Positions 11,026-64,000 of a stretch of 64,000 nucleotides of DNA are shown here, in pieces. The position numbers were made by a program, and so were the translations under genes. The notes beneath the pieces were generated by a model. It had not been told where the DNA came from. It searched no databases and was given only the letters and a program-made list of their open reading frames with translations. Source of the DNA: an uncultured delta proteobacterium (GTDB lineage: Bacteria; Desulfobacterota; Desulfomonilia; UBA1062); contig CAWAUM010000011.1 in the NCBI GenBank assembly GCA_963785235.1, positions 64,001 to 128,000 on the forward strand, written 5' to 3'. Every line of letters begins with the position of its first letter. The first letter of the stretch is position 1.

Positions 11026-11057
11026 CAAAAAAACCACGGCCTGTTCAGGGCCGTGGT
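11026..11057 (-). terminator. intrinsic terminator of small-protein cassette copy 1
   Basis: Minus strand ACCACGGCC-loop-GGCCGTGGT followed by a T-run. Confidence 0.7.
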
Positions 11058-11109
11058 CTATGGATGGATCGTTCGGGGTTTTACGCCTTTGGGGAGGCGC
11101 GTGCTTTTT

Positions 11110-11214
11110 TTACCGGTGGGCCGCCTTCTTTGCCAGGCGTGCCTCGTGCCCGGTGAACCGCAGGGTAATGGCCAGGAATGCCGCGATGCCGGTTGCGATG
11201 AAGAAGACTGTCAT
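11110..11214 (-). CDS. 34-aa single-TM microprotein (cassette gene 3, copy 1)
   Basis: MTVFFIATGIAAFLAITLRFTGHEARLAKKAAHR; SD GGAGG; same length and position as the paralog at 63572-63676. Confidence 0.6.
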   Translation of the reverse strand: MTVFFIATGIAAFLAITLRFTGHEARLAKKAAHR

Positions 11215-11216
11215 GG

Positions 11217-11459
11217 CTATACCCTCCGTGCCTTTCTTTCAATAACGACCTCTTCAATGAACCCCTTGAAGCCCAGTACGATGCCGGCCACCAGTCCAAC
11301 CAGCGTAAAGTTGGGCGCCATGCCCAGGGCCTTGTCAAGCTCCATGCCGCCGTACATGCCGAGGAAAGTCATGGTCACGAGCACCAGGCAGTATGCGCTG
11401 ATCCTGCTGAGCCGGTTTTTCACTTCGCGTGTTACGGTCTCTTTGTGCGTGCGTTTCAT
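11217..11459 (-). CDS. AtpZ/AtpI-family (ATPase_gene1-like) 2-TM protein, copy 1
   Basis: GMYGGMELDKALGMAPNFTLVGLVAGI matches the GxxLDxxxxxxPxFxxxGxxxG family pattern; SD AGGAGG. Confidence 0.7.
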   Translation of the reverse strand: MKRTHKETVTREVKNRLSRISAYCLVLVTMTFLGMYGGMELDKALGMAPNFTLVGLVAGIVLGFKGFIEEVVIERKARRV

Positions 11460-11498
11460 GGCCTTTCCTCCTTTGACGGGGTTCTAAATCAATCCTGG

Positions 11499-11675
11499 TT
11501 AGAAGAGGTTCATGATGATGTGACGGGCCGGGCCGGTGTTGATGCCCACCAGGGCGACCATCAGGACGAACACTGCCGCTGCTTCAACCGGGATGAGTCC
11601 CAATACCTTGTAGGTGAACCGGATCCCGATGCCTACCATGAACAGTGCGCCGATTACGATCCATAATGTCATCAT
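11499..11675 (-). CDS. 58-aa 2-TM membrane microprotein (cassette gene 1, copy 1); below the ORF-track cutoff
   Basis: MMTLWIVIGALFMVGIGIRFTYKVLGLIPVEAAAVFVLMVALVGINTGPARHIIMNLF; SD AGGAGG; paralog at 63113-63289. Confidence 0.75.
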   Translation of the reverse strand: MMTLWIVIGALFMVGIGIRFTYKVLGLIPVEAAAVFVLMVALVGINTGPARHIIMNLF

Positions 11676-11721
11676 TGTCTTGCCCTCCTGGGGTTTGTTT
11701 TTTCTTTCTGACCTCTATAAG

Positions 11722-11894
11722 GCAAGGGGCGTGCCAGGGCGGGCATGTTTATAACTTATTGAAATCAAAACTACTATCAATTTATGAAAAACCTGGTATT
11801 GTCATTCTGTCATTATTGCTTTGGGATAAGGGTCGTCGGGGTACAATTTGTCAAACCGGTATACCCTGCCATAGGGGCGGAATGACAGAATGGC
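11722..11894 (-). promoter_or_regulatory. sigma54 (-24/-12) promoter with IHF-like site and candidate enhancer (UAS), copy 1
   Basis: Minus strand TGGCACGCCCCTTGC (11722-11736); TTTCAATAAGTTA (11752-11764); inverted GTCATTCTGTCATT (11801) / AATGACAGAATGGC (11881). Confidence 0.8.
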
Positions 11895-12084
11895 AAGCCA
11901 GGAGAACCAGAGGGGTTTCCCTGCCAAGGCAAGACCGGAACAACACCTTAATATTCCTTTGAAATACAGGCCTGGAATTATCCTGTCACCAACAGGACAA
12001 AAAACCTCTGGCATTGGAATGCAATCCGGGGCATTATGAAGGCCTGTAGTCCATGTCATGCAATGAGGAGGCTGTGCAGCACCC

Positions 12085-12612
12085 ATGGCGGCATCGGCAC
12101 GCACCATCGTGCCCGGCTGTCCCCATCACATCACCCAGCGGGGAAACAGGCGACAGAAGGTGTTCTTTTGTGATGACGACTACCGGGCATACCGGGATCT
12201 GGTGGCCCACTGGACCAAATTCTACGGGGTTGAGGTGTGGTGTTACTGTCTCATGCCCAACCATGTGCACCTCCTGGCCGTGCCCTGCTCGAAGGATGCC
12301 TTTTCCCGTGCGTTCGGCCAGGCGCACCGAAGGTACACCCGCATGGTGAACACCAGGTTCAGCTGGCAGGGTCACCTGTGGCAGGGCAGGTTCTCGTCTG
12401 GCGTGGTGCACAACGAATCGCTCCTGGCAACCGCCCGCTATATCGAGATGAATCCGGTTCATGCACGTCTGGTGAAGAACCCGCAGGATTACGAATGGAG
12501 CAGCGCCGGCGCCCACATTGAAGGCAGGCCCGATTGCCTGGCCAGGGGCGGACCCTTCTCGGCGCTTGCGGATGAGTGGAAGGCGTTCCTGCTGCTTGCC
12601 GGGCAGCGGTGA
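12085..12612 (+). mobile_element. REP-associated tyrosine transposase (RAYT, Y1/HUH family), possibly C-terminally shortened
   Basis: HHITQRGNRRQKVF, YCLMPNHVHLL (HUH), LWQGRF, YIEMNPV and YEWSS motifs. Confidence 0.85.
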
Positions 12613-57325: not shown

Positions 57326-58174
57326 ATGAACATAATGAAAACGATGGTTCTTATGGTGGCACTGACATTGATGATGGTGTTCTTTGGCGGTTTGATGGGC
57401 GGAAAAACAGGAATGACCGTGGCACTCATCATGGCTTTCGGCATGAATTTTGTCACGTACTGGTTCAGTGACAAGATTGTGCTCAAGATGTACGGTGCCC
57501 AGCCCGTGACCGAGGCCGAAGCCCCGGAACTATACCGGATGATCGAAAAGCTTGCACAAAGGGCCTCACTTCCCATGCCGCGGCTCTATGTGATCGATGG
57601 TGACCAGCCCAATGCCTTTGCGACAGGCAGAAATCCGGAACATGGCGTGGTTGCGGTGACTAGGGGCATTATGCGGATCCTTTCACGCGAGGAGCTTGAA
57701 GGTGTCCTGGCACATGAACTGGCGCACATCAAACACCGGGATATCCTCATTGGCACGGTGGCAGCATCTGTCGCCGGTGCCATCAGCTACCTGGCACAGA
57801 TGGCGCAGTGGGCCATGATATTCGGCGGGCGCAGCGATGACGAAGGTGAGGGCGGTTCGGTTCTGTCTTCGCTTGTCATGATGATCGTCGGTCCGATTGC
57901 CGCCATGATCATCCAAATGGCCATCTCACGCTCGCGTGAATACGCCGCCGATGCCGGGGGGGCAAGGATAGCCGGTAATCCCATGTATCTTGCGAATGCC
58001 CTGCGTAAACTGCACATGGCCTCTCAACGGATACCCATGAATGCAAACCCGGCCACTGCACATATGTTCATAGTGAATCCTCTGAGCGGTGGGGGGCTCA
58101 TGAAGCTCTTCAGCACACATCCGCCCATGGAAGAGCGTATTGCCAGACTGGAATCAATGCGACCGGAGGCATAA
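57326..58174 (+). CDS. htpX: heat-shock membrane zinc protease HtpX
   Basis: [31 protein letters not shown]; SD AAGGAGG. Confidence 0.95.
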
Positions 58175-58253
58175 GGGTAGGGGGTTAACCTGGCGAGATC
58201 CTAATCGATCCCATGCCCGCCACACTCTGTAATGAAGGAGATCACGTAGCACT

Positions 58254-58670
58254 ATGAGGCCCAAAACCAGAGATAGGCTGATAATCTGCGGGGAAGTCGG
58301 TTTGTTTGCAATCGTTCTCTTTGTTTTATGGCTTGATGAGTTCATTGATCTCCCCCATCTTTTTTTCGGAGCACCTTCGAAACCATTCAGGCTAGAGGAG
58401 TTTTTAATCGAGACTGTCTCAATTCTTATTGTTGCGGCAATCGTCATCGCCGTAACCTTTTTTATTCAGTATAGATCCAGGAGGATCGAGCAATTCTTGA
58501 GGGTCTGTGCATGGTGCAGAAAGGTATGGATGGATGATAAATGGGTACGTTTTGAAGATTATATACAAAAGAGCCAGGCTCTGAGATCTAGCCATGGCAT
58601 CTGTGAAGAATGCCTTTCAAAACAGAATTCAAAGGCCAAGCACAAGGATGAGGATAAACAGCAGCCCTGA
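58254..58670 (+). CDS. 2-TM protein with C-terminal CxxC...SHGICxxC zinc-binding module
   Basis: Two hydrophobic helices, then VCAWCRKV...W...SHGICEEC. Confidence 0.7.
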   Translation: MRPKTRDRLIICGEVGLFAIVLFVLWLDEFIDLPHLFFGAPSKPFRLEEFLIETVSILIVAAIVIAVTFFIQYRSRRIEQFLRVCAWCRKVWMDDKWVRFEDYIQKSQALRSSHGICEECLSKQNSKAKHKDEDKQQP

Positions 58671-58835
58671 TACCCGAAGCTGAAGGAGAACCTGTCAGCT
58701 GTCTCTCTGGCTGTTGTCAATAATGACCAGTACAATCCTCACTTGATAATCAACGAAAATGGCTGATCTCGAACTTAACTTGTGGTACAAATAGTATAGG
58801 AAAATAAGTGATAAGTATAATTGAAGGAGGAAATT

Positions 58836-59333
58836 ATGTCCAAATCAGAAGATGCGTTGAAAGAAGCTTTTGCCGGAGAATCACAGGCAAACCGAAAATA
58901 TCTGGCTTTTGCGGTTAAGGCCGATCAGGAAGGATTTCCGCAGGCGGCAAAATTGTTTCGGGCAGCCGCTGAAGCAGAAACAGTTCACGCCCATGCCCAT
59001 TTACGGGCATTAAAAGGAATTCGATCCACCAAGGAAAACTTGCAGGAGGCGATAGCCGGAGAAACTCACGAGTTTAAAAGCATGTATCCGGGAATGATTG
59101 AAGCGGCGAAGGTTGAAGGCAATAAAGAGGCCGAGCGATCTTTTAATTTTGCCAACGAAGTGGAGAAAATTCATGCCCGGCTCTATCAGCAAATGCTTGA
59201 TAATATGGAAAGTGCAAAAGAATCTTACAGCTATTATGTATGTCCGGTATGTGGATATACTTCAGAGAAGGAGGCGCCGGAGACTTGTCCTGTATGCGGG
59301 GCTAAAGGAAAGATGTTTAAAAAAGTTGATTAA
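58836..59333 (+). CDS. rbr: rubrerythrin
   Basis: AFAGESQA, EAETVHA, EKIH, C-terminal CPVCGY...CPVC. Confidence 0.93.
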   Translation: MSKSEDALKEAFAGESQANRKYLAFAVKADQEGFPQAAKLFRAAAEAETVHAHAHLRALKGIRSTKENLQEAIAGETHEFKSMYPGMIEAAKVEGNKEAERSFNFANEVEKIHARLYQQMLDNMESAKESYSYYVCPVCGYTSEKEAPETCPVCGAKGKMFKKVD

Positions 59334-59586: not shown

Positions 59587-62295
59587 TCACGGCAGGCCCC
59601 TTCTTTCCCTCCTGCGGACAAAGAACTTCTCAATACCCACTACCACCATTATCAGGGAAGCCGCGGCAAGAATGCGAACCCAGGAATCGAGGCCGATGGG
59701 TCTGCTGTGAAAGGCGGTGTTCATGGCAGGCACATAGGTGAAGAGCAGCTGAAGGATGAACATTAGACCAGCCCCGCCGAACACCGAGAGATTGGAGAAG
59801 AACCCCACCTCGAAAACGGATTTCGTGAGAGACCGGCAGTTGAAAAGGTACATGAGTTCGCCCATGACGAACACGTTCACCGCCACGGTCCTGGCCTCTG
59901 CTATGCCTGTACCGCTGGATAATTCATACTCGAAGAGCCCGAATGCACCCAGAAGCAGCAGGAAACCCACGATGGCGATCCGCCATATGAGCGTGCGGGT
60001 GAGGATGGGCTCTTTCGGGTCGCGCGGCGCCCTCTTCATGATGCCCGGCTCCTTGGGTTCGAACACCAGCATGAGGCCCAGCAGCACGGCCGTAGTCATG
60101 TTGATCCACAGGATCTGCACCGGCAGGATGGGCAGGGTCACCCCCGCGAATATGGCCGCCAGGATCACCAGACCCTCGCCGATGTTTGTGGGCAGGGTCC
60201 AGACGATGAACTTGGTGAGGTTGTCGAAGGTTCCCCTGCCTTCCTCCACCGCCGCCTCGATGGATGCGAAGTTGTCGTCGGTGAGCACCATGTCCGAGGC
60301 CTCCTTGGCCACGTCCGTGCCCGTGATGCCCATGGCCACGCCGATATTGGCCCGCTTCAGGGCGGGCGCGTCGTTCACCCCGTCGCCGGTCATGGCCACG
60401 ATGTTTCCCCTTGCCTGCAGGGCCTCCACCAGGCGGAGCTTCTGCTCGGGGGCCACCCGGGCAAACACCGATACGTCCTCCACGATATCGATGATCTCAG
60501 CGTCGCTGATGCTGCCAGCTCCCTGCCGGTGACAACCTTCCCTGCATTGTGCAGGCCGATCCTGGCTGCGATGGCCGAGGCGGTGAGCGCATGGTCGCCG
60601 GTGATCATCTTCACGTGGATGCCGGCACTGTGGCAGTTCCTGCACCGCTTCGACGGCCTCGTTCCGGGGCGGGTCGATCATCCCCTGCAGCCCCAGGAAG
60701 GTCAGCCCCGAGGCGATATCCTTGTGGTCGATCTTTTCCCTGCCGTCCTCAATGGCCTTCCGGGCAAAGGCAAGCACCCTGAGCCCTTTGGCGGCCATGG
60801 CGTCCACGGCCGCGTGGATGGCCGCAGTATCCAGATCAACTGGAGAGCCCTGCGGGTCCAGGGCCGAGGTGCAGCGCTCCAGCAGCGCCTCGACCGATCC
60901 CTTGACAAACGCCACGGCGGTCCTCCCCGGCAGATCGCCATGCAGGGTGGCCATGTACTGGTGGTGCGATTCAAAGGGGATGGTGTCGAGACGCCTGAAC
61001 CGGGCACTCTCCTGCTCCATGAAAAGGCCGGCCTTTGCCGCTGCGGCAATGAGGGCCCCCTCGGTGGGGTCGCCCTGCACGGTGAGGCGCTCCTCCTTTT
61101 CCACGAGCAGGCTGTCGTTGCACAGCAGGCCGCACCTGAGTGTCTCCATGAGAGCCTCGGACAGAGGGCCGTCTGATTGAGCGTCTGCACGGACGATCTC
61201 GCCCTCAGACGCATAGCCGGTACCGCTCACCGTATATGCATCACTGCCGGCAGCGATCTCCTGGACCGTCATCTGGTTCTCGGTGAGCGTGCCTGTCTTG
61301 TCCGAGCAGATGACCGTGGTGCTGCCCAGGGTCTCCACGGCCGGCAGCTTGCGGATGATGGCCCGCCTCCTGGCCATGCGCGCCACGCCGATGGCGAGCG
61401 TGATGGTCATGGCTGCGGGCAGGCCCTCAGGGATGGCGCCCACGGCAAGGGCCACGGCTGCCATGAACATCTCGAAGGCACTCTGGCCTCTCAGCATACC
61501 CACCGCAAAGGTGGCCAGCGGCAAGCCCCAGGATCAGGTAGAGCAGGATCCTGCTGAATTCCGCGATCTTCTGAAGAAGCGGGGTCTCGAGTTCTTCGGT
61601 GGAAGAGATAAGCTCCGAGATGCGGCCCACCTCCGTGTTGTCGCCGATGGCCACCACCACGCCCGAAGCCTGTCCGTAGGTGACCAGGGCCGAGCCGTAG
61701 ACCATGTTCTTCCGGTCGGCCAGGATCGTATCGTGGGGAAGCTGCGCTGTGTCCTTCTCAACGGCCACGGACTCCCCGGTGAGCGCCGACTCGTCCACCT
61801 GCAGGTCCCGGGCAGGCGATCAGGCGCATATCCGCAGGGACCTTGTCTCCCGGACTGGAGCAGGACAATGTCGCCCGGCACCACCTCGGCAGAGGATATC
61901 CTCGTCTTTGCTCCCGAGCGCACGACCGTCGCTTCGGTGACCATGGTCTTTGCCAGGGCCTCCATGGCCTTGACCGCCTTGGCCTCCTGGATGAAGCCTA
62001 TGATCGCATTGACTATCACAACACCGAAGATGACCCCGGCGTCCACCCATTCCTGGAGCAGGGCCGTGATGAGCCCGGCCGCCAGAAGGATATAGACCAG
62101 GGGCTGGTGGAACTGCAGGAGAAACCGGAGCAGGGGGCTCTTGCCCTTCTTAGTGGTCAGGACATTATAACCGAAGCGCTCGCGCCGGTGGTTGATTTCG
62201 AAGAGGTCAAGGCCCCGCTCACGATCGCTTTCCAGGAGATCGACCACCTCGTCGGCTGGCAGGTAGTGCCAGTGTTTCCCGATCAGTTTATCCAT
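59587..62295 (-). CDS. cation-transporting P-type ATPase (P2A, Ca2+/Mn2+-type); about 5 apparent indels
   Basis: [27 protein letters not shown] and [11 protein letters not shown] recovered across frames. Confidence 0.9.
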
Positions 62296-62348
62296 GACGT
62301 TCCTTTTAGCCCAGTGTTTTGAAACCAGCGACGTTCTCAATCTCTTCT

Positions 62349-62620: not shown

Positions 62621-62893
62621 CTACCTTCCTCCATGCGCAGTCTGTATTGTTTGCAGCAAATTATCATATCTCACCATCTTTTTCCAGAAATTTCAATAGA
62701 TAACATGCCATCCACATGCCCTGATGTTGAGCGCCCGTGAAGCATAGATCTTGACTCAAGAAGCAGCTCTTATCGGACCTAAAAGGTTTGGTGCCACCAT
62801 AAACTAGTACAGCTGACCGGTTGGCTTCATCAATACAGGGTTTATTGTATAATTGCAGGGGGAACAGGTATTGATTGGCAAATCCCGGTCTTT

Positions 62894-63065
62894 GCCATTC
62901 TGACAATCTTAGCAGTGCCCCTGAGGTCATTTTGTCATTTTGTACCCACCCACATCCTTGCAGGGAGCTTTTTTTGCCAAAATGACAATTCCAGGAAAGG
63001 CCATTACATGAATGTTTTATGATATCAATAAGTTATAAGTTGCCAGAACCTGGCACGCCCCTTGC
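62894..63065 (+). promoter_or_regulatory. sigma54 promoter with IHF site and candidate UAS, copy 2
   Basis: TGGCACGCCCCTTGC (63051-63065); TATCAATAAGTTA (63023-63035, WATCAANNNNTTR); GCCATTCTGAC, GTCATTTTGTC and GCCAAAATGAC boxes at 62894, 62926 and 62976. Confidence 0.82.
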
Positions 63066-63112
63066 CTTATATGAAGTAGAAAGAAAAAAAGAAACCCCAG
63101 GAGGGCAAGACA

Positions 63113-63289
63113 ATGATGACATTATGGATCGTAATCGGCGCACTGTTCATGACCGGCATAGGGATCAGGTTCACCTACAAGGTATTGGGACTCACCCCGG
63201 TAGAAGCAAGCGCGGTATTCGTCCTGGTGGTCGCCCTGGTAACCATCAACACCGGCCCGGCACGTGAGATCCTCATGAGCCTGTTCTAA
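63113..63289 (+). CDS. 58-aa 2-TM membrane microprotein (cassette gene 1, copy 2)
   Basis: MMTLWIVIGALFMTGIGIRFTYKVLGLTPVEASAVFVLVVALVTINTGPAREILMSLF; SD AGGAGG. Confidence 0.75.
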   Translation: MMTLWIVIGALFMTGIGIRFTYKVLGLTPVEASAVFVLVVALVTINTGPAREILMSLF

Positions 63290-63329
63290 GGCAGGACTCA
63301 GATAGAAAAAAAGGATAAGGAGGAAGGCC

Positions 63330-63569
63330 ATGAAGACAAAGAAAGAAAAGATCGAAAAGGCACTGGCCAACAGGCTCAGCAGGATAAGCGCATACAGCCT
63401 GGTGCTCGTTATGATGACCTTCCTCGGACTCTACGGCGGCATGTATCTGGACAGGGTTCTCGGCATGGCACCCAACTTCACGATGGTAGGACTGGTGGCC
63501 GGCATAGCACTGGGCTTCAAGGGGTTCATCGAAGAGGTCGTGATCGAGAGAAAGGTAAAGAGGGCATAG
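63330..63569 (+). CDS. AtpZ/AtpI-family 2-TM protein, copy 2
   Basis: GLYGGMYLDRVLGMAPNFTMVGLVAGI; paralog of 11217-11459. Confidence 0.72.
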   Translation: MKTKKEKIEKALANRLSRISAYSLVLVMMTFLGLYGGMYLDRVLGMAPNFTMVGLVAGIALGFKGFIEEVVIERKVKRA

Positions 63570-63571
63570 CC

Positions 63572-63676
63572 ATGACAGTCATCTTTGTAATTGTTGGCTT
63601 CACGGCATTCCTGGCCCTGACTGCACGGTTCGTGAAACGCGCAGGGCATGCTGCCAGGGCAGCGCAGATCCGGTAA
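63572..63676 (+). CDS. 34-aa single-TM microprotein (cassette gene 3, copy 2)
   Basis: MTVIFVIVGFTAFLALTARFVKRAGHAARAAQIR; same length as copy 1. Confidence 0.6.
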   Translation: MTVIFVIVGFTAFLALTARFVKRAGHAARAAQIR

Positions 63677-63728
63677 TCGAACAGGCCTCCAGCGAACTTC
63701 CTCCCCGGGAACGATCCATATCACACAC

Positions 63729-63756
63729 CACGGCCCCGAAAGGGTCGTGTTTTTTT
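63729..63756 (+). terminator. intrinsic terminator of cassette copy 2
   Basis: CACGGCCC-CGAAA-GGGTCGTG-TTTTTTT. Confidence 0.7.
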
Positions 63757-63857
63757 ATTCAACTGATTATCCTGCGAGAAGCAACGGGCCGCCTTGAGGG
63801 CGACCCGCATTCGTGATGTAGGCTGCCGGATTGTAACCCGGCTTTCTTGAGTATCGA

Positions 63858-64000
63858 CTAGGACTGGTATCTGACCCTGCGGTTGTTCAACTCATCTTTG
63901 GCCTTTGTGTAGTCCGTGAACATCCGTGCAAAGCACAATCCCATGCCCAGCACAAACAAACCAAGCATGAAGGTCGGTTCCGTATTGAACTTCACATCGA
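63858..64000 (-). CDS. third AtpZ/AtpI-like protein, 3' part (start lies beyond the window)
   Basis: ...DVKFNTEPTFMLGLFVLGMGLCFARMFTDYTKAKDELNNRRVRYQS* fits the DxxFxTxPxFxL pattern. Confidence 0.55.
   Translation of the reverse strand, partial: DVKFNTEPTFMLGLFVLGMGLCFARMFTDYTKAKDELNNRRVRYQS

What the first reader, a model, noticed from the sequence alone, without database searches (positions are those of the whole stretch)
62894..63756. Duplicated sigma54-driven cassette of three tiny membrane proteins built around an orphan AtpZ/AtpI-like gene (copy 2)
Seen: an approximately 860-bp unit of UAS boxes, IHF consensus, perfect -24/-12 TGGCAC-N5-TTGC, a 58-aa 2-TM ORF, a 79-aa AtpZ/AtpI-like ORF, a 34-aa 1-TM ORF and a terminator recurs in inverted orientation at about 11026-11894. 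Lengths of the flanking ORFs (58 and 34 aa), SDs, promoter elements and hydrophobic patterns are conserved while the spacers have diverged. This points to selection on all three ORFs, two of which the ORF track misses. Known: ATPase_gene1 (AtpZ/AtpI/AtpQ) proteins normally sit in F- or N-type atp operons and are linked to c-ring assembly or divalent cation uptake. Inference: this is a stand-alone, signal-activated small-membrane-protein module, perhaps an ion channel or a regulator of ATP synthase, with no described function that I recognise.
Basis: partly seen in the sequence, partly recalled or inferred. Interest (0 to 1): 0.82.

Follow-up and report, generated by a model that had tools for sequence, protein, structure and literature searches.

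The report
Seven-copy sigma-54 small membrane-peptide operon
A tightly switched three-gene unit for three tiny membrane proteins, one of them related to an ATP-synthase accessory protein, is real, sits in seven copies in this genome and is confined to one uncultured anaerobic bacterial lineage, but what it does is still unknown.

Summary
The unit at 62893-63759 carries three upstream activator boxes, an IHF-consensus match, TGGCAC-N5-TTGC, ORF A (58 aa), ORF B (79 aa, PF09527 at 39.4 bits against a 26.6 cut-off), ORF C (34 aa) and a terminator. It occurs 7 times in this genome, not twice.

A genome-wide scan finds exactly 7 clusters of the upstream box, all at these cassettes. None of the other 93 sigma-54-like boxes has one.

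A and B are under purifying selection; C is looser but keeps its frame, G9 and R19.

ORF A is found in 21 of 24 other genomes searched in the same family and 0 of 16 in a sister family. It has only 15 representatives among 1.84 billion proteins. C is probably a paralogue of A's first helix.

A second cassette type with its own sigma-54-like box and its own PF09527 gene exists in 5 copies. The genome holds 15 PF09527 genes, 13 of them outside atp operons.

Links to AtpR, the N-ATPase and mobile elements were tested and not supported. Function remains inferred: probably an inducible membrane complex acting on cation or energy homeostasis.

The parts
62893..62905 (+). Upstream activator box 1 (TGCCATTCTGACA; TGNCA-N3-TGNCA type)
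   Evidence: direct repeat D3 with box 3; conserved in all 7 own copies, including the diverged c10 copy; part of one of only 7 such clusters in the genome.
62933..62945 (+). Upstream activator box 2 (TGTCATTTTGTAC), inverted relative to box 3
   Evidence: inverted pair I5: 11 nt, 100% complementary to 62978-62988.
62975..62987 (+). Upstream activator box 3 (TGCCAAAATGACA)
63023..63035 (+). IHF-consensus match TATCAATAAGTTA (WATCAA-N4-TTR)
   Evidence: the core around ...TCA.T.AGTTATAA is conserved in the 7 own copies. In other genomes the strict consensus is met in only 24 of 76 loci. The consensus itself is recalled, not from a call.
63051..63065 (+). Sigma-54 -24/-12 box TGGCAC-N5-TTGC
   Evidence: A box 52-64 nt before the ORF A ATG in 20 of 20 relatives' loci. 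In the 80-locus set, 66 strict plus 2 loose of 77, and 7 more with TTGA or TTGT at -12.
63113..63289 (+). ORF A, 58 aa, helical hairpin, new narrow family; invariant W5, G9, R19, F20, E31, N46, P49, R51
   Evidence: 16 invariant columns in 33 sequences; AlphaFold2 pLDDT 92, helices 2-25 and 29-57.
63330..63569 (+). ORF B, 79 aa, PF09527 (AtpZ/AtpQ-type) hairpin
   Evidence: 39.4 bits, cut-off 26.6; 20 of 20 homologues hit PF09527; pLDDT 83, helices 3-44 and 49-78.
63572..63676 (+). ORF C, 34 aa, one TM helix plus basic tail; probable paralogue of ORF A residues 1-26
   Evidence: searches (G9 and R19 invariant; M1, F5, F20 nearly so; hhalign 87.5%, E 3.5e-6, register 1-26 to 1-26), controls 62-64, and 97 (present in 65 of 73 loci).
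63729..63759 (+). Intrinsic terminator (8-bp stem with 6 GC pairs, then a T run)
   Evidence: conserved at the right edge of the shared unit.
63858..64000 (-). 3' part of the 87-aa PF09527 gene of a convergent type-II cassette; it runs on beyond the window end
   Evidence: 37.2 bits. Its 92-aa partner gene and TGGCAC-N5-ATGC box lie beyond the window, in L001.
11800..11895 (-). Copy 1: cluster of three upstream activator boxes
   Evidence: (C11:75800-75895).
11721..11736 (-). Copy 1: sigma-54 box TGGCACGCCCCTTGCC
   Evidence: C11, minus strand, 75736.
11499..11675 (-). Copy 1: ORF A (58 aa, 86% identical to copy 2)
11217..11459 (-). Copy 1: ORF B (80 aa, PF09527 at 36.0 bits)
11110..11214 (-). 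Copy 1: ORF C (34 aa)
11026..11056 (-). Copy 1: terminator hairpin plus T run
   Evidence: Read; aligned with the copy 2 terminator.

Best explanation
The unit is a real, self-contained operon. One dedicated sigma-54 activator protein binds three TGNCA-N3-TGNCA boxes 70-170 nt upstream, DNA bending (an IHF-type site) brings it to a TGGCAC-N5-TTGC promoter, and one short transcript ending at an intrinsic terminator encodes three tiny inner-membrane peptides.

The three peptides are:
- A, a 58-aa hairpin of a new family;
- B, a 79-aa AtpZ/AtpQ-type hairpin;
- C, a 34-aa single helix that is a paralogue of A's first helix.

The genome carries seven such units, which together make up the whole regulon of that upstream motif. 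One signal would therefore fire seven promoters at once and flood the membrane with the three peptides. B and C are often translationally coupled.

Shown: the anatomy, the copy number, the exclusivity of the motif, purifying selection, family-wide conservation, and that A and B are predicted helical hairpins.

Inferred: that the three peptides assemble into one hetero-oligomeric membrane complex with A (with C) as its constant core and B as an accessory. Also inferred, by analogy with AtpZ, is that the complex acts on cation or energy homeostasis at the membrane, as a divalent-cation or proton/sodium conductance or as a modulator of a rotary ATPase. The signal, the activator and the substrate are unknown.

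My odds: real co-regulated multi-copy operon for three membrane peptides, about 0.9. One complex, about 0.6. Ion or energy role, about 0.3.
For: Anatomy and copy number:
- The parts are read directly.
- There are 7 copies with all three ORFs intact.

Regulon:
- Of 100 sigma-54-like boxes in the genome, only the 7 cassette promoters have the upstream boxes, three each; the other 93 have none.
- Of 79 single sites genome-wide, the only 7 clusters are at the cassettes, against about 0.11 chance pairs expected.
- rpoN is present, and there are about 30 activator-like genes.

Selection:
- dN/dS for diverged pairs is 0.16-0.43 for A, 0.08-0.28 for B and about 0.2-0.6 for C.

Conservation:
- ORF A is in 21 of 24 same-family genomes at 1-5 copies each.
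- A sigma-54 box is present in 20 of 20 fetched loci.
- In 80 further loci from named uncultured genomes: box in 68 of 77, plus 7 with a variant -12; at least 2 upstream boxes in 71 of 76.
- By HMM over 73 of those loci, B is in 64, C in 65 and both in 60.
- The B stop overlaps the C start by 4 nt in 34 of 57 loci.

Structure and homology:
- A folds as a hairpin at pLDDT 92 and B at pLDDT 83.
- C matches A(1-26) by hhalign at 87.5% against 0.6-6.6% for three controls.
- All 20 B homologues hit PF09527.

Background:
- The AtpZ link to Mg2+ acquisition comes from passages of PMC4453477 and PMC3543383.

Expression:
- Contigs from RNA libraries in 4 of 4 laid runs (4 studies) cover 63069-63685, and one 569-nt contig spans A to C. 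This is a weak hint only.
Against: - No experiment or raw-read data show a sigma-54-dependent start. The RNA evidence is contigs from relatives at 88-99% identity, and DNA carry-over cannot be excluded.
- No activator is identified. The only adjacent NtrC-type regulator is next to a cassette in just 3 genomes of one genus, and its phyletic pattern disagrees with ORF A in 3 of 24 family genomes.
- The strict IHF consensus is met in only 24 of 76 loci outside this genome.
- B is missing in 9 of 73 loci and C in 8 of 73, and 4 loci have A alone. An obligatory three-part complex is therefore not universal.
- The ion-homeostasis role rests only on the family name and one study in a distant Bacillus.
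- The cassette does not track the N-type ATPase.
- Neighbouring genes differ at every copy.
Confidence: 0.55

Rival explanations
1. A Psp-like envelope-stress output. The peptides are membrane-stabilising or signalling effectors, like the small sigma-54-dependent membrane protein PspG of enterobacteria. They would be produced in bulk when the membrane is damaged, with no ion-specific or ATPase-specific role. The PF09527 fold would be just a convenient hairpin.
For: - The logic is the same: a sigma-54 promoter, an IHF-type site and a dedicated upstream site in front of tiny membrane proteins.
- Dosage amplification to 7 copies fits a bulk structural role.
- Several copies lie near stress genes: an HtpX-type M48 peptidase and rubrerythrin near copy 2, and KatG with a Fur-family regulator near copy c2b.
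- The description of PspG is recalled, not taken from a call.
Against: - No Pfam family other than PF09527 reaches significance for A, B or C at E up to 1, so there is no homology to Psp proteins.
- The contexts are heterogeneous and the ancestral locus lies between an amino-acid ABC transporter and a glyoxalase-like gene plus a helicase, which is not an envelope-stress context.
- I did not search the genome for pspA or pspF.
Confidence: 0.2
2. Dedicated accessory or regulatory subunits of a rotary ATPase, F-type or N-type. A, B and C would bind the c-ring or a-subunit to assist assembly or to brake the enzyme under energy limitation, as AtpI, AtpZ and AtpR are thought to do.
For: - B belongs to PF09527. 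In this genome's canonical operons that family sits directly before AtpI (F-type, contig C1) and AtpR (N-type, contig C7).
- Copy c1 lies about 1.1 kb downstream of atpC of the atpHAGDC operon.
- The carriers are labelled as members of anaerobic lineages, where tuning of the ATPase would matter; that last point is my inference.
- The assembly roles of AtpI and AtpR are from passages of PMC2881411 and PMC4154653.
Against: - ORF A shows no relation to AtpR (hhalign 0.2%).
- No Pfam AtpI, AtpR or c-subunit hit for A or C at E up to 1.
- AtpR is not found in 3 near-complete genomes that carry ORF A (G019, G020, G022), and is found in 2 sister-family genomes without ORF A.
- Only 1 of 7 copies is near atp genes. 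That copy has its own promoter and is separated from atpC by two toxin-antitoxin-like genes.
- The F-type link cannot be tested by phyletic pattern.
Confidence: 0.15
3. A selfish or mobile cassette, or a toxin-like small membrane peptide module, that spreads within genomes. Its high copy number would reflect mobility, not host benefit.
For: - The shared unit has sharp edges (about -222 to +606/650 relative to the ORF A ATG) in different genomic contexts.
- Five copies are 90-94% identical in DNA.
- An IS200-like Y1 transposase gene lies about 190 nt beyond the upstream edge of copy 1 (window 12085-12612).
- A TumE-family toxin-like gene pair lies beside copy c1.
Against: - There are no terminal inverted repeats; the only strong repeats are the activator boxes.
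- A transposase is beside only 1 of the 7 copies.
- ORF A has no match in 72,556 plasmid or 50,697 phage records.
- The c10-type copy sits in conserved synteny across at least four genera and forms an orthologous clade with 98/98 support.
- Identity is highest in the A-B core (dS 0-0.07) and lower at the edges (dS in C 0.07-0.3). That is the pattern of gene conversion between old paralogues, not of recent transposition.
- Purifying selection acts on A and B.
Confidence: 0.07

Closest known systems
AtpZ of Bacillus pseudofirmus OF4 and AtpQ ('gene 1') of N-type ATPase operons (Pfam PF09527, ATPase_gene1)
   Same: ORF B meets the PF09527 model above the curated cut-off, as do 20 of 20 homologues. 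It is a short two-helix membrane hairpin of the same size. By tblastn it is nearer the F-type AtpZ of this genome (32% over 60 aa, E 9e-6) than the N-type AtpQ (E 1.4).
   Different: It is not in an atp operon. It has its own sigma-54 promoter and terminator, is flanked by two peptides that atp operons lack, and is present in 7 copies. The canonical genes here are followed by AtpI or AtpR and by the a and c subunits. A role in Mg2+ uptake is known only from the Bacillus protein (passages).
AtpR (PF12966) and AtpI (PF03899), the membrane partners encoded next to PF09527 genes
   Same: They are small membrane proteins encoded beside a PF09527 gene. AtpR carries conserved arginines in its helices (passages of PMC2881411), and ORF A and ORF C each have an invariant arginine at position 19.
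   Different: No detectable homology: A against AtpR gives 0.2% and C against AtpR gives 1.0% by hhalign. There is no Pfam hit at E up to 1. The gene order also differs, because A precedes B.
pspG-type genes: a sigma-54 promoter with an IHF site and a dedicated activator site driving a tiny membrane protein (recalled, not from a call)
   Same: The same regulatory architecture and the same class of product.
   Different: No sequence relation was found. Here there are three cistrons, seven copies, and an upstream motif that occurs nowhere else in the genome.
Qrr1-5 small RNA genes of Vibrio: several paralogous sigma-54 promoters fired by one activator, LuxO (abstract seen in the listing, 10.1101/2021.07.01.450815)
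   Same: One activator plus sigma-54 controls a set of dispersed, near-identical small genes, giving control of dosage.
   Different: Those genes encode regulatory RNAs, not membrane peptides, and the organisms are unrelated. This is an analogy of circuit design only.

Membership tests
PF09527 ATPase_gene1 (AtpZ/AtpQ) - ORF B | Match to the Pfam model above its gathering score | tested here: met
   39.4 and 36.0 bits against a cut-off of 26.6 for the two window copies; 20 of 20 homologues match.
PF09527 ATPase_gene1 (AtpZ/AtpQ) - ORF B | Short two-helix membrane hairpin | tested here: met
   AlphaFold2 model with helices 3-44 and 49-78, pLDDT 83.
PF09527 ATPase_gene1 (AtpZ/AtpQ) - ORF B | Encoded in an F- or N-type atp operon, upstream of atpI or atpR and atpB | tested here: not met
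   The atpB and atpE genes lie only at C1 (about 340 kb) and C7 (about 27 kb). All 7 cassettes are elsewhere, each with its own promoter and terminator. PMC2881411 notes that atpQ is not limited to N-ATPase operons, so this is typical but not strictly defining.
PF09527 ATPase_gene1 (AtpZ/AtpQ) - ORF B | Contribution to Mg2+/Ca2+ uptake or ATPase assembly | not testable with these tools
   Needs complementation or transport assays.
   PF03899 is not listed for either B copy at E up to 1, while the genome's true AtpI scores 53.4 bits.
AtpR (PF12966) - considered for ORF A and ORF C | Sequence or profile similarity to AtpR | tested here: not met
   No Pfam hit at E up to 1. hhalign gives 0.2% for A against AtpR and 1.0% for C against AtpR. 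The genome's true AtpR scores 75.9 bits.
F/V-ATPase c subunit (PF00137) - considered for ORF A | Sequence similarity to c subunits | tested here: not met
   No PF00137 hit at E up to 1. The only hit among solved structures is a mitochondrial subunit 9 at E 0.052, out of register with the predicted hairpin.
Sigma-54-dependent promoter with a bacterial enhancer-binding protein | -24 GG and -12 GC elements with correct spacing upstream of the gene | tested here: met
   TGGCAC-N5-TTGC at 63051-63065. Present in 7 of 7 own copies, in 20 of 20 fetched loci and in 68 of 77 of the wider set.
Sigma-54-dependent promoter with a bacterial enhancer-binding protein | The organism encodes sigma-54 and activator proteins | tested here: met
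   One PF04552 match at 208.8 bits; 30 activator-like AAA+ matches.
Sigma-54-dependent promoter with a bacterial enhancer-binding protein | Repeated, conserved activator sites about 70-200 nt upstream | tested here: met
   Three TGNCA-N3-TGNCA-type boxes in each of the 7 copies. There are exactly 7 such clusters in the genome against about 0.11 expected. At least 2 boxes in 71 of 76 loci elsewhere. Protein binding itself was not tested.
Sigma-54-dependent promoter with a bacterial enhancer-binding protein | IHF site between the activator sites and the promoter | tested here: inconclusive
   There is a consensus match at 63023-63035, and the surrounding block is conserved in the 7 own copies. 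The strict consensus is met in only 24 of 76 loci elsewhere.
Sigma-54-dependent promoter with a bacterial enhancer-binding protein | Transcript start about 12 nt downstream of the -12 GC; dependence on rpoN | not testable with these tools
   Only assembled contigs of RNA libraries were available. Cover begins in the bin 63069-63109 in one run, which cannot define a start.
Insertion sequence, MITE or other mobile cassette | Terminal inverted repeats, a transposase, or presence on plasmids or phages | tested here: not met
   No terminal repeats. A Y1 transposase is beside only 1 of 7 copies. No plasmid or phage match. The c10-type copy is in conserved synteny.

The most novel reading that the evidence does not exclude
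This lineage has built a dosage-amplified 'burst' device for membrane energetics. One enhancer-binding protein fires up to seven identical sigma-54 promoters, plus perhaps the five type-II cassettes through a second activator. The membrane is then flooded with a hetero-oligomer made of a previously unknown peptide pair (A and its one-helix paralogue C) and an AtpZ-like hairpin. That complex would directly gate ion flow, either as an inducible cation or proton pore or as a plug or brake on the rotary ATPase c-ring. It would let energy-starved anaerobes switch their membrane state quickly. The 13 orphan PF09527 genes of this genome would then reveal the true, general function of the AtpZ/AtpQ family as a modular pore or c-ring-binding element.
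Probability: 0.15. Interest if true: 0.8.

Novelty: new variant of a known kind. Interest (0 to 1): 0.62.

Why it matters
PF09527 (AtpZ/AtpQ) is a widespread small membrane protein family whose role is still unsettled. The papers I could search treat it only inside atp loci (passages).

Here the family has left the ATPase operon. It has acquired two new peptide partners and a private sigma-54 switch, and it has expanded to 13 orphan genes in one genome. The 24 other genomes of this family have 2-9 PF09527 genes and the 16 sister-family genomes have 1-2.

That gives a natural handle for asking what an AtpZ-type hairpin does on its own. It also offers an unusually clean regulon, one motif and seven identical targets, for identifying the activator and its signal.

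It adds a well-supported case of very small proteins (34 and 58 aa) under selection, of the kind that gene callers tend to miss.

My searches for 'AtpZ' with 'sigma-54', 'PF09527', 'AtpZ' alone, 'ATPase_gene1/COG5536/TIGR02230' and 'UBA1062/Phosphitivorax' turned up no description of such a cassette. The library lacks most subscription journals, and supplements were closed, so this is not proof of absence.

Tried and rejected
ORF A as a shortened AtpR. By eye, 'GIGIRF' and 'PAREILM' recalled the two arginine helices of this genome's AtpR. hhalign of a 33-sequence A alignment against a 17-sequence AtpR alignment gave 0.2%. Rejected.

ORF A as a c-subunit relative. The only hit among solved structures was a mitochondrial subunit 9 at E 0.052, Pfam gave none, and the register does not fit the hairpin model. 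Rejected as noise.

Remote relatives of ORF A. The profile search of 1.84 billion representatives gave 15 hits, all the same family. The protein atlas gave only unnamed clusters, with a weak DUF2768 lead at 0.83, below the level the tool treats as meaningful.

Complex prediction of B, C and A. The result was 'no answer', score 0.00 in two runs, and controls were not run. This is no evidence either way.

Link to the N-type ATPase. The phyletic patterns disagree.

Regulator by adjacency or phyletic profile. The HK plus NtrC-type pair is beside a cassette only in G000, G003 and G004. There are three discordant genomes. No upstream-box cluster lies in front of any activator gene. The regulator stays unidentified.

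Conserved gene neighbourhood as a clue to function. The seven copies have seven different contexts. The ancestral c10-type locus lies between an amino-acid ABC transporter and a glyoxalase-like gene plus a helicase, which suggests no function to me.

Known RNA elements. None lies in the unit. The only hits in the window at gathering score are two tRNAs elsewhere, and the one weak hit near the unit is a mammalian lncRNA model at E 0.21.

RNA runs. Shares of words were small (0.06-0.17). The laid contigs come from relatives, so the lack of cover upstream of 63069 and downstream of 63724 says nothing. I name no habitat from them.

My first regex tallies of B and C missed variants: one search was too strict and was corrected, and the regex counts were replaced by the HMM counts.

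The fold of the terminator region as a whole is not more stable than shuffles (z -0.10). The terminator call rests on the local hairpin and T run.

I did not run fold searches on the two hairpin models, because any helical hairpin would match.
Full report
OBSERVATION

The window stretch 62893-63759 holds, in order:
- three related boxes: TGCCATTCTGACA at 62893-62905, TGTCATTTTGTAC at 62933-62945 (inverted relative to the third), and TGCCAAAATGACA at 62975-62987;
- a match to the IHF consensus at 63023-63035;
- TGGCAC-N5-TTGC at 63051-63065;
- three ORFs, each preceded by a purine-rich ribosome-binding stretch: A at 63113-63289 (58 aa), B at 63330-63569 (79 aa) and C at 63572-63676 (34 aa);
- a hairpin plus T-run terminator at 63729-63759.

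No sigma-70-type promoter is called on the + strand upstream. The inverted copy at about 11026-11895 has the same parts, with ORFs of 58, 80 and 34 aa. Both B copies meet Pfam PF09527 above the gathering score (39.4 and 36.0 bits against 26.6) and show no AtpI (PF03899) match.

COPY NUMBER AND EDGES

The window is G000:C11:64001-128000. The whole genome holds seven copies. Two are in the window, two on contig C2, and one each on C5, C1 and C10.

All seven keep the three ORFs (58 aa; 79-80 aa; 31-35 aa). Five copies are 90-94% identical in DNA to the finding, copy 1 is 82% and the C10 copy is 67%.

The shared unit runs from about -222/-237 to +606/+650 relative to the ORF A start. That is from the first box to the terminator. 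In three copies homology continues to about +1520 to +1740.

THE EXTENSION IS A SECOND CASSETTE TYPE

On the opposite strand the extension carries:
- a sigma-54-like box, TGGCAC-N5-(A/T/G)TGC;
- a membrane protein of about 91-93 aa with no Pfam family;
- an 87-100-aa PF09527 protein (37.2 bits).

This type-II cassette exists in five copies. Three of them are convergent to type-I copies, including the one that runs off the end of the window at 63858.

In all, the genome has 15 PF09527 matches. Two are canonical. One precedes AtpI, atpB and atpE on C1. The other precedes AtpR (PF12966, 75.9 bits), atpB and atpE on C7, in an operon with the N-ATPase order described in PMC2881411. The other 13 are orphans: seven of type I, five of type II and one lone gene.

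Across the same 40 relatives, PF09527 counts are 2-9 in the 24 genomes of this family and 1-2 in the 16 genomes of the sister family.

REGULON

I scanned the genome for TGGCA(C/T)-N5-(T/C/A)TGC(A/T/C) and found 100 boxes. Only the seven type-I promoters have TGNCA-N3-TGNCA-type sites within 220 nt upstream, three each. The other 93 have none.

Scanning independently of promoters found 79 single sites in the genome. The only clusters are these seven, against about 0.11 chance pairs expected. No cluster lies before an activator gene.

The genome encodes sigma-54 and about 30 activator-like proteins. One histidine kinase plus NtrC-type regulator pair lies directly upstream of copy c2a, with an amidase gene between them. 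The same pair is next to a cassette in G003 and G004, in other arrangements.

Orthologue-level matches to its DNA-binding end (61% identity or more) occur in 22 of 24 family genomes and in none of the sister family. They disagree with ORF A in three genomes: G016 and G021 have the regulator but no ORF A hit, and G020 has ORF A but only a 51% match. I treat this regulator as a lead only.

SELECTION AND CONSERVATION

Nei-Gojobori counts give, for diverged pairs, dN/dS of 0.16-0.43 (A), 0.08-0.28 (B) and about 0.2-0.6 (C). Among the five near-identical copies, dS is 0-0.07 in A and B but 0.07-0.3 in C, and some C pairs have dN/dS near or above 1.

ORF A is found in 21 of 24 other genomes of the same family, at 1-5 copies each, and in 0 of 16 genomes of the sister family with this query. 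The three family genomes without a hit are 78%, 77% and 96% complete.

The word-based search gave 223 homologue clusters. Every name listed was 'hypothetical protein' and none had a Pfam domain. A full HMMER profile search of 1.84 billion representatives gave only 15 hits.

In 33 aligned sequences, 16 columns of A are invariant, among them W5, G9, R19, F20, E31, N46, P49 and R51. In B, F31, G33, G37, D41, P48, F50, T51, G58, G62 and R74 are invariant. In C, G9 and R19 are invariant, and M1, F5 and F20 nearly so.

In 20 loci fetched from eight other genomes, a sigma-54 box lies 52-64 nt before the ORF A start in all 20. B and C are each present in 18 of the 20.

In a second set of 80 loci from the species-representative collection:
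- 66 of the 77 loci with enough upstream sequence have a strict box, and 2 a loose one;
- of the remaining 9, seven have TGGCA(C/T)-N5-TTGA or TTGT, one is preceded by a second ORF A in tandem, and one has nothing;
- at least two upstream boxes occur in 71 of 76 loci, and three in 52;
- the strict IHF consensus occurs in only 24 of 76.

Every one of these 80 records is titled as an uncultured metagenome-assembled genome. The labels are Desulfomonilia, 'Deltaproteobacteria', Thermodesulfobacteriota, 'Syntrophaceae UBA1062', some 'Bacteriovoracaceae' and one 'Firmicutes', and one record is titled Phox-21.

HMMs built from my B and C alignments find B in 64 and C in 65 of the 73 loci with at least 700 nt after the ORF A start. 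Both are in 60, A with C only in 5, A with B only in 4, and A alone in 4. The B stop overlaps the C start by 4 nt in 34 of 57 loci.

EVOLUTION OF THE COPIES

In a maximum-likelihood tree of A+B (25 rows; the two loci without B were left out), the C10-type copy groups with copies from two other species of the genus (support 98/98). The other copies group by genome: the five near-identical own copies together (99/94), and likewise pairs in G003, G023 and G024.

The C10-type locus keeps its neighbours in several genomes. The amino-acid ABC transporter lies upstream in L039, L043 and L046. The glyoxalase-like gene and helicase lie downstream in L029, L037, L043 and L046.

Copy c2a shares neighbours (an amidase, a DHH/CBS protein and a poly(A)-polymerase-like gene) with a very divergent cassette in G023, yet its sequence is nearly identical to the other own copies.

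Identity is highest in the A-B core and decays towards the edges. Together with the tree, this points to old paralogues homogenised by gene conversion, plus lineage-specific duplication. It does not point to transposition.

Other evidence against mobility: there are no terminal inverted repeats, no plasmid or phage matches, and a transposase gene (IS200-like Y1, window 12085-12612) beside only one of the seven copies.

THE PROTEINS

AlphaFold2 with my alignments predicts A as a hairpin (helices 2-25 and 29-57, pLDDT 92) and B as a hairpin (helices 3-44 and 49-78, pLDDT 83).

From the distribution of basic residues I infer the following topology; it is not computed:
- A has both ends outside and the R19-K23 loop inside;
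- B has both ends inside, with the invariant D41 and P48-N49-F50 in the outer loop;
- C has its N-terminus outside and its basic tail inside.

C aligns to residues 1-26 of A in the same register by hhalign (87.5%, E 3.5e-6). Three controls between other membrane-peptide alignments give 6.6%, 1.0% and 0.6%. So C is probably a duplicate of A's first helix.

A has no detectable relation to AtpR (0.2%) or to B (0.6%). Neither A nor B has a significant relative among solved structures.

EXPRESSION

Fifteen runs on record as RNA hold small shares of the stretch's words, among 20 listed rows from ten studies.

In the four runs I laid (four studies), contigs at 88-99% identity cover 63069/63110 to about 63600/63685. 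One 569-nt contig spans A to C.

These are contigs from relatives in RNA libraries. They cannot show a start, a strand or a level, and DNA carry-over is possible. I count this as a weak hint that the coding part is transcribed in nature.

WHAT IT MOST LIKELY IS

Shown: a conserved, self-contained, sigma-54-type operon for three tiny membrane peptides, amplified to seven copies that share a private upstream motif.

Inferred:
- one activator drives all seven;
- the peptides form one complex in which A (with its paralogue C) is the constant part and B an accessory. The basis is co-conservation, translational coupling, and the existence of A+C and A-only variants but no stand-alone B+C variant in the loci examined. 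Those loci were all found through A, which biases this point;
- the complex acts on cation or energy homeostasis. The basis is the PF09527 family's association with ATPase operons and the reported effect of AtpZ on Mg2+ acquisition (passages of PMC4453477 and PMC3543383).

The rivals are set out in their own section: a Psp-like membrane-stress output, a dedicated ATPase accessory, and a selfish or toxin-like cassette. The N-type ATPase link is contradicted by phyletic patterns.

NOVELTY

B is a new, orphan, differently regulated branch of a known family. A and C form a narrow family that, in the searches I ran, has no name or described relative. The cassette as a whole, its seven-fold amplification, its private motif and the parallel type-II cassette were not found in the literature I could search. 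Of those papers I saw only search listings and the passages cited above, and supplements were closed.

I rate it a new variant of a known kind. The interest is moderate to high for people working on small membrane proteins, sigma-54 regulons or ATPase accessory proteins. It is limited by the lack of any functional data and by the uncultured hosts.

Noticed in passing
window 63858-64000 (-) and beyond; L001 2499-3136; also G000 C5:536854-537365, C2:266684-267176, C1:155264-155810, C12:218684-219240: A second, unrelated-looking cassette type in 5 copies: a sigma-54-like box (TGGCAC-N5-A/T/G-TGC), a membrane protein of about 91-93 aa with a signal-peptide-like start and no Pfam family, and an 87-100-aa PF09527 protein. 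Three copies are convergent to type-I cassettes. The partner protein is found in 17 of 24 family genomes and 0 of 16 sister-family genomes.
   Followed up: partly
window 59587-62340 (-): A P-type cation ATPase appears split into two adjacent ORFs. The 268-aa ORF has Cation_ATPase_N and the start of the E1-E2 domain. The 645-aa ORF has the end of the E1-E2 domain, the hydrolase domain and Cation_ATPase_C. This is a frameshift, a pseudogene or an assembly error.
   Followed up: no
window 12085-12612 (+): An IS200-like Y1 transposase gene (PF01797, 52.8 bits) lies divergent to copy 1 of the cassette, about 190 nt beyond its first upstream box. No such gene was seen beside the other six copies.
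   Followed up: partly
G000 C1:~580431-581165 (L025 6863-7593): A toxin-antitoxin-like pair (TumE family, 44.8 bits; HVO_A0114/HTH protein, 71.8 bits) sits between atpC of the atpHAGDC operon and cassette copy c1.
   Followed up: no
G000 C5:569532-569783: A lone 83-aa PF09527 gene (63.5 bits, the best score in the genome) stands outside any atp operon and any cassette. It closely resembles the canonical AtpZ on C1.
   Followed up: no
L042, L069, L079, L080, L084, L093; L070; L041/L075, L098, L105: Natural variants of the cassette in other genomes: ORF A followed directly by ORF C with B cleanly absent, one tandem A-A, and several A-only copies. These are useful as natural deletion series.
   Followed up: partly
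L001 3500-3921 (G000 C11:~128860-129280, just beyond the window end): A run of tRNA-like sequences on the minus strand lies downstream of the type-II cassette. This was read by eye and not run through a tRNA finder.
   Followed up: no
window 57326-59333: An HtpX-type M48 peptidase and a rubrerythrin lie upstream of the P-type ATPase near copy 2. KatG and a Fur-family regulator lie near copy c2b on C2. Several copies therefore sit near stress-response genes, without a consistent pattern.
   Followed up: partly
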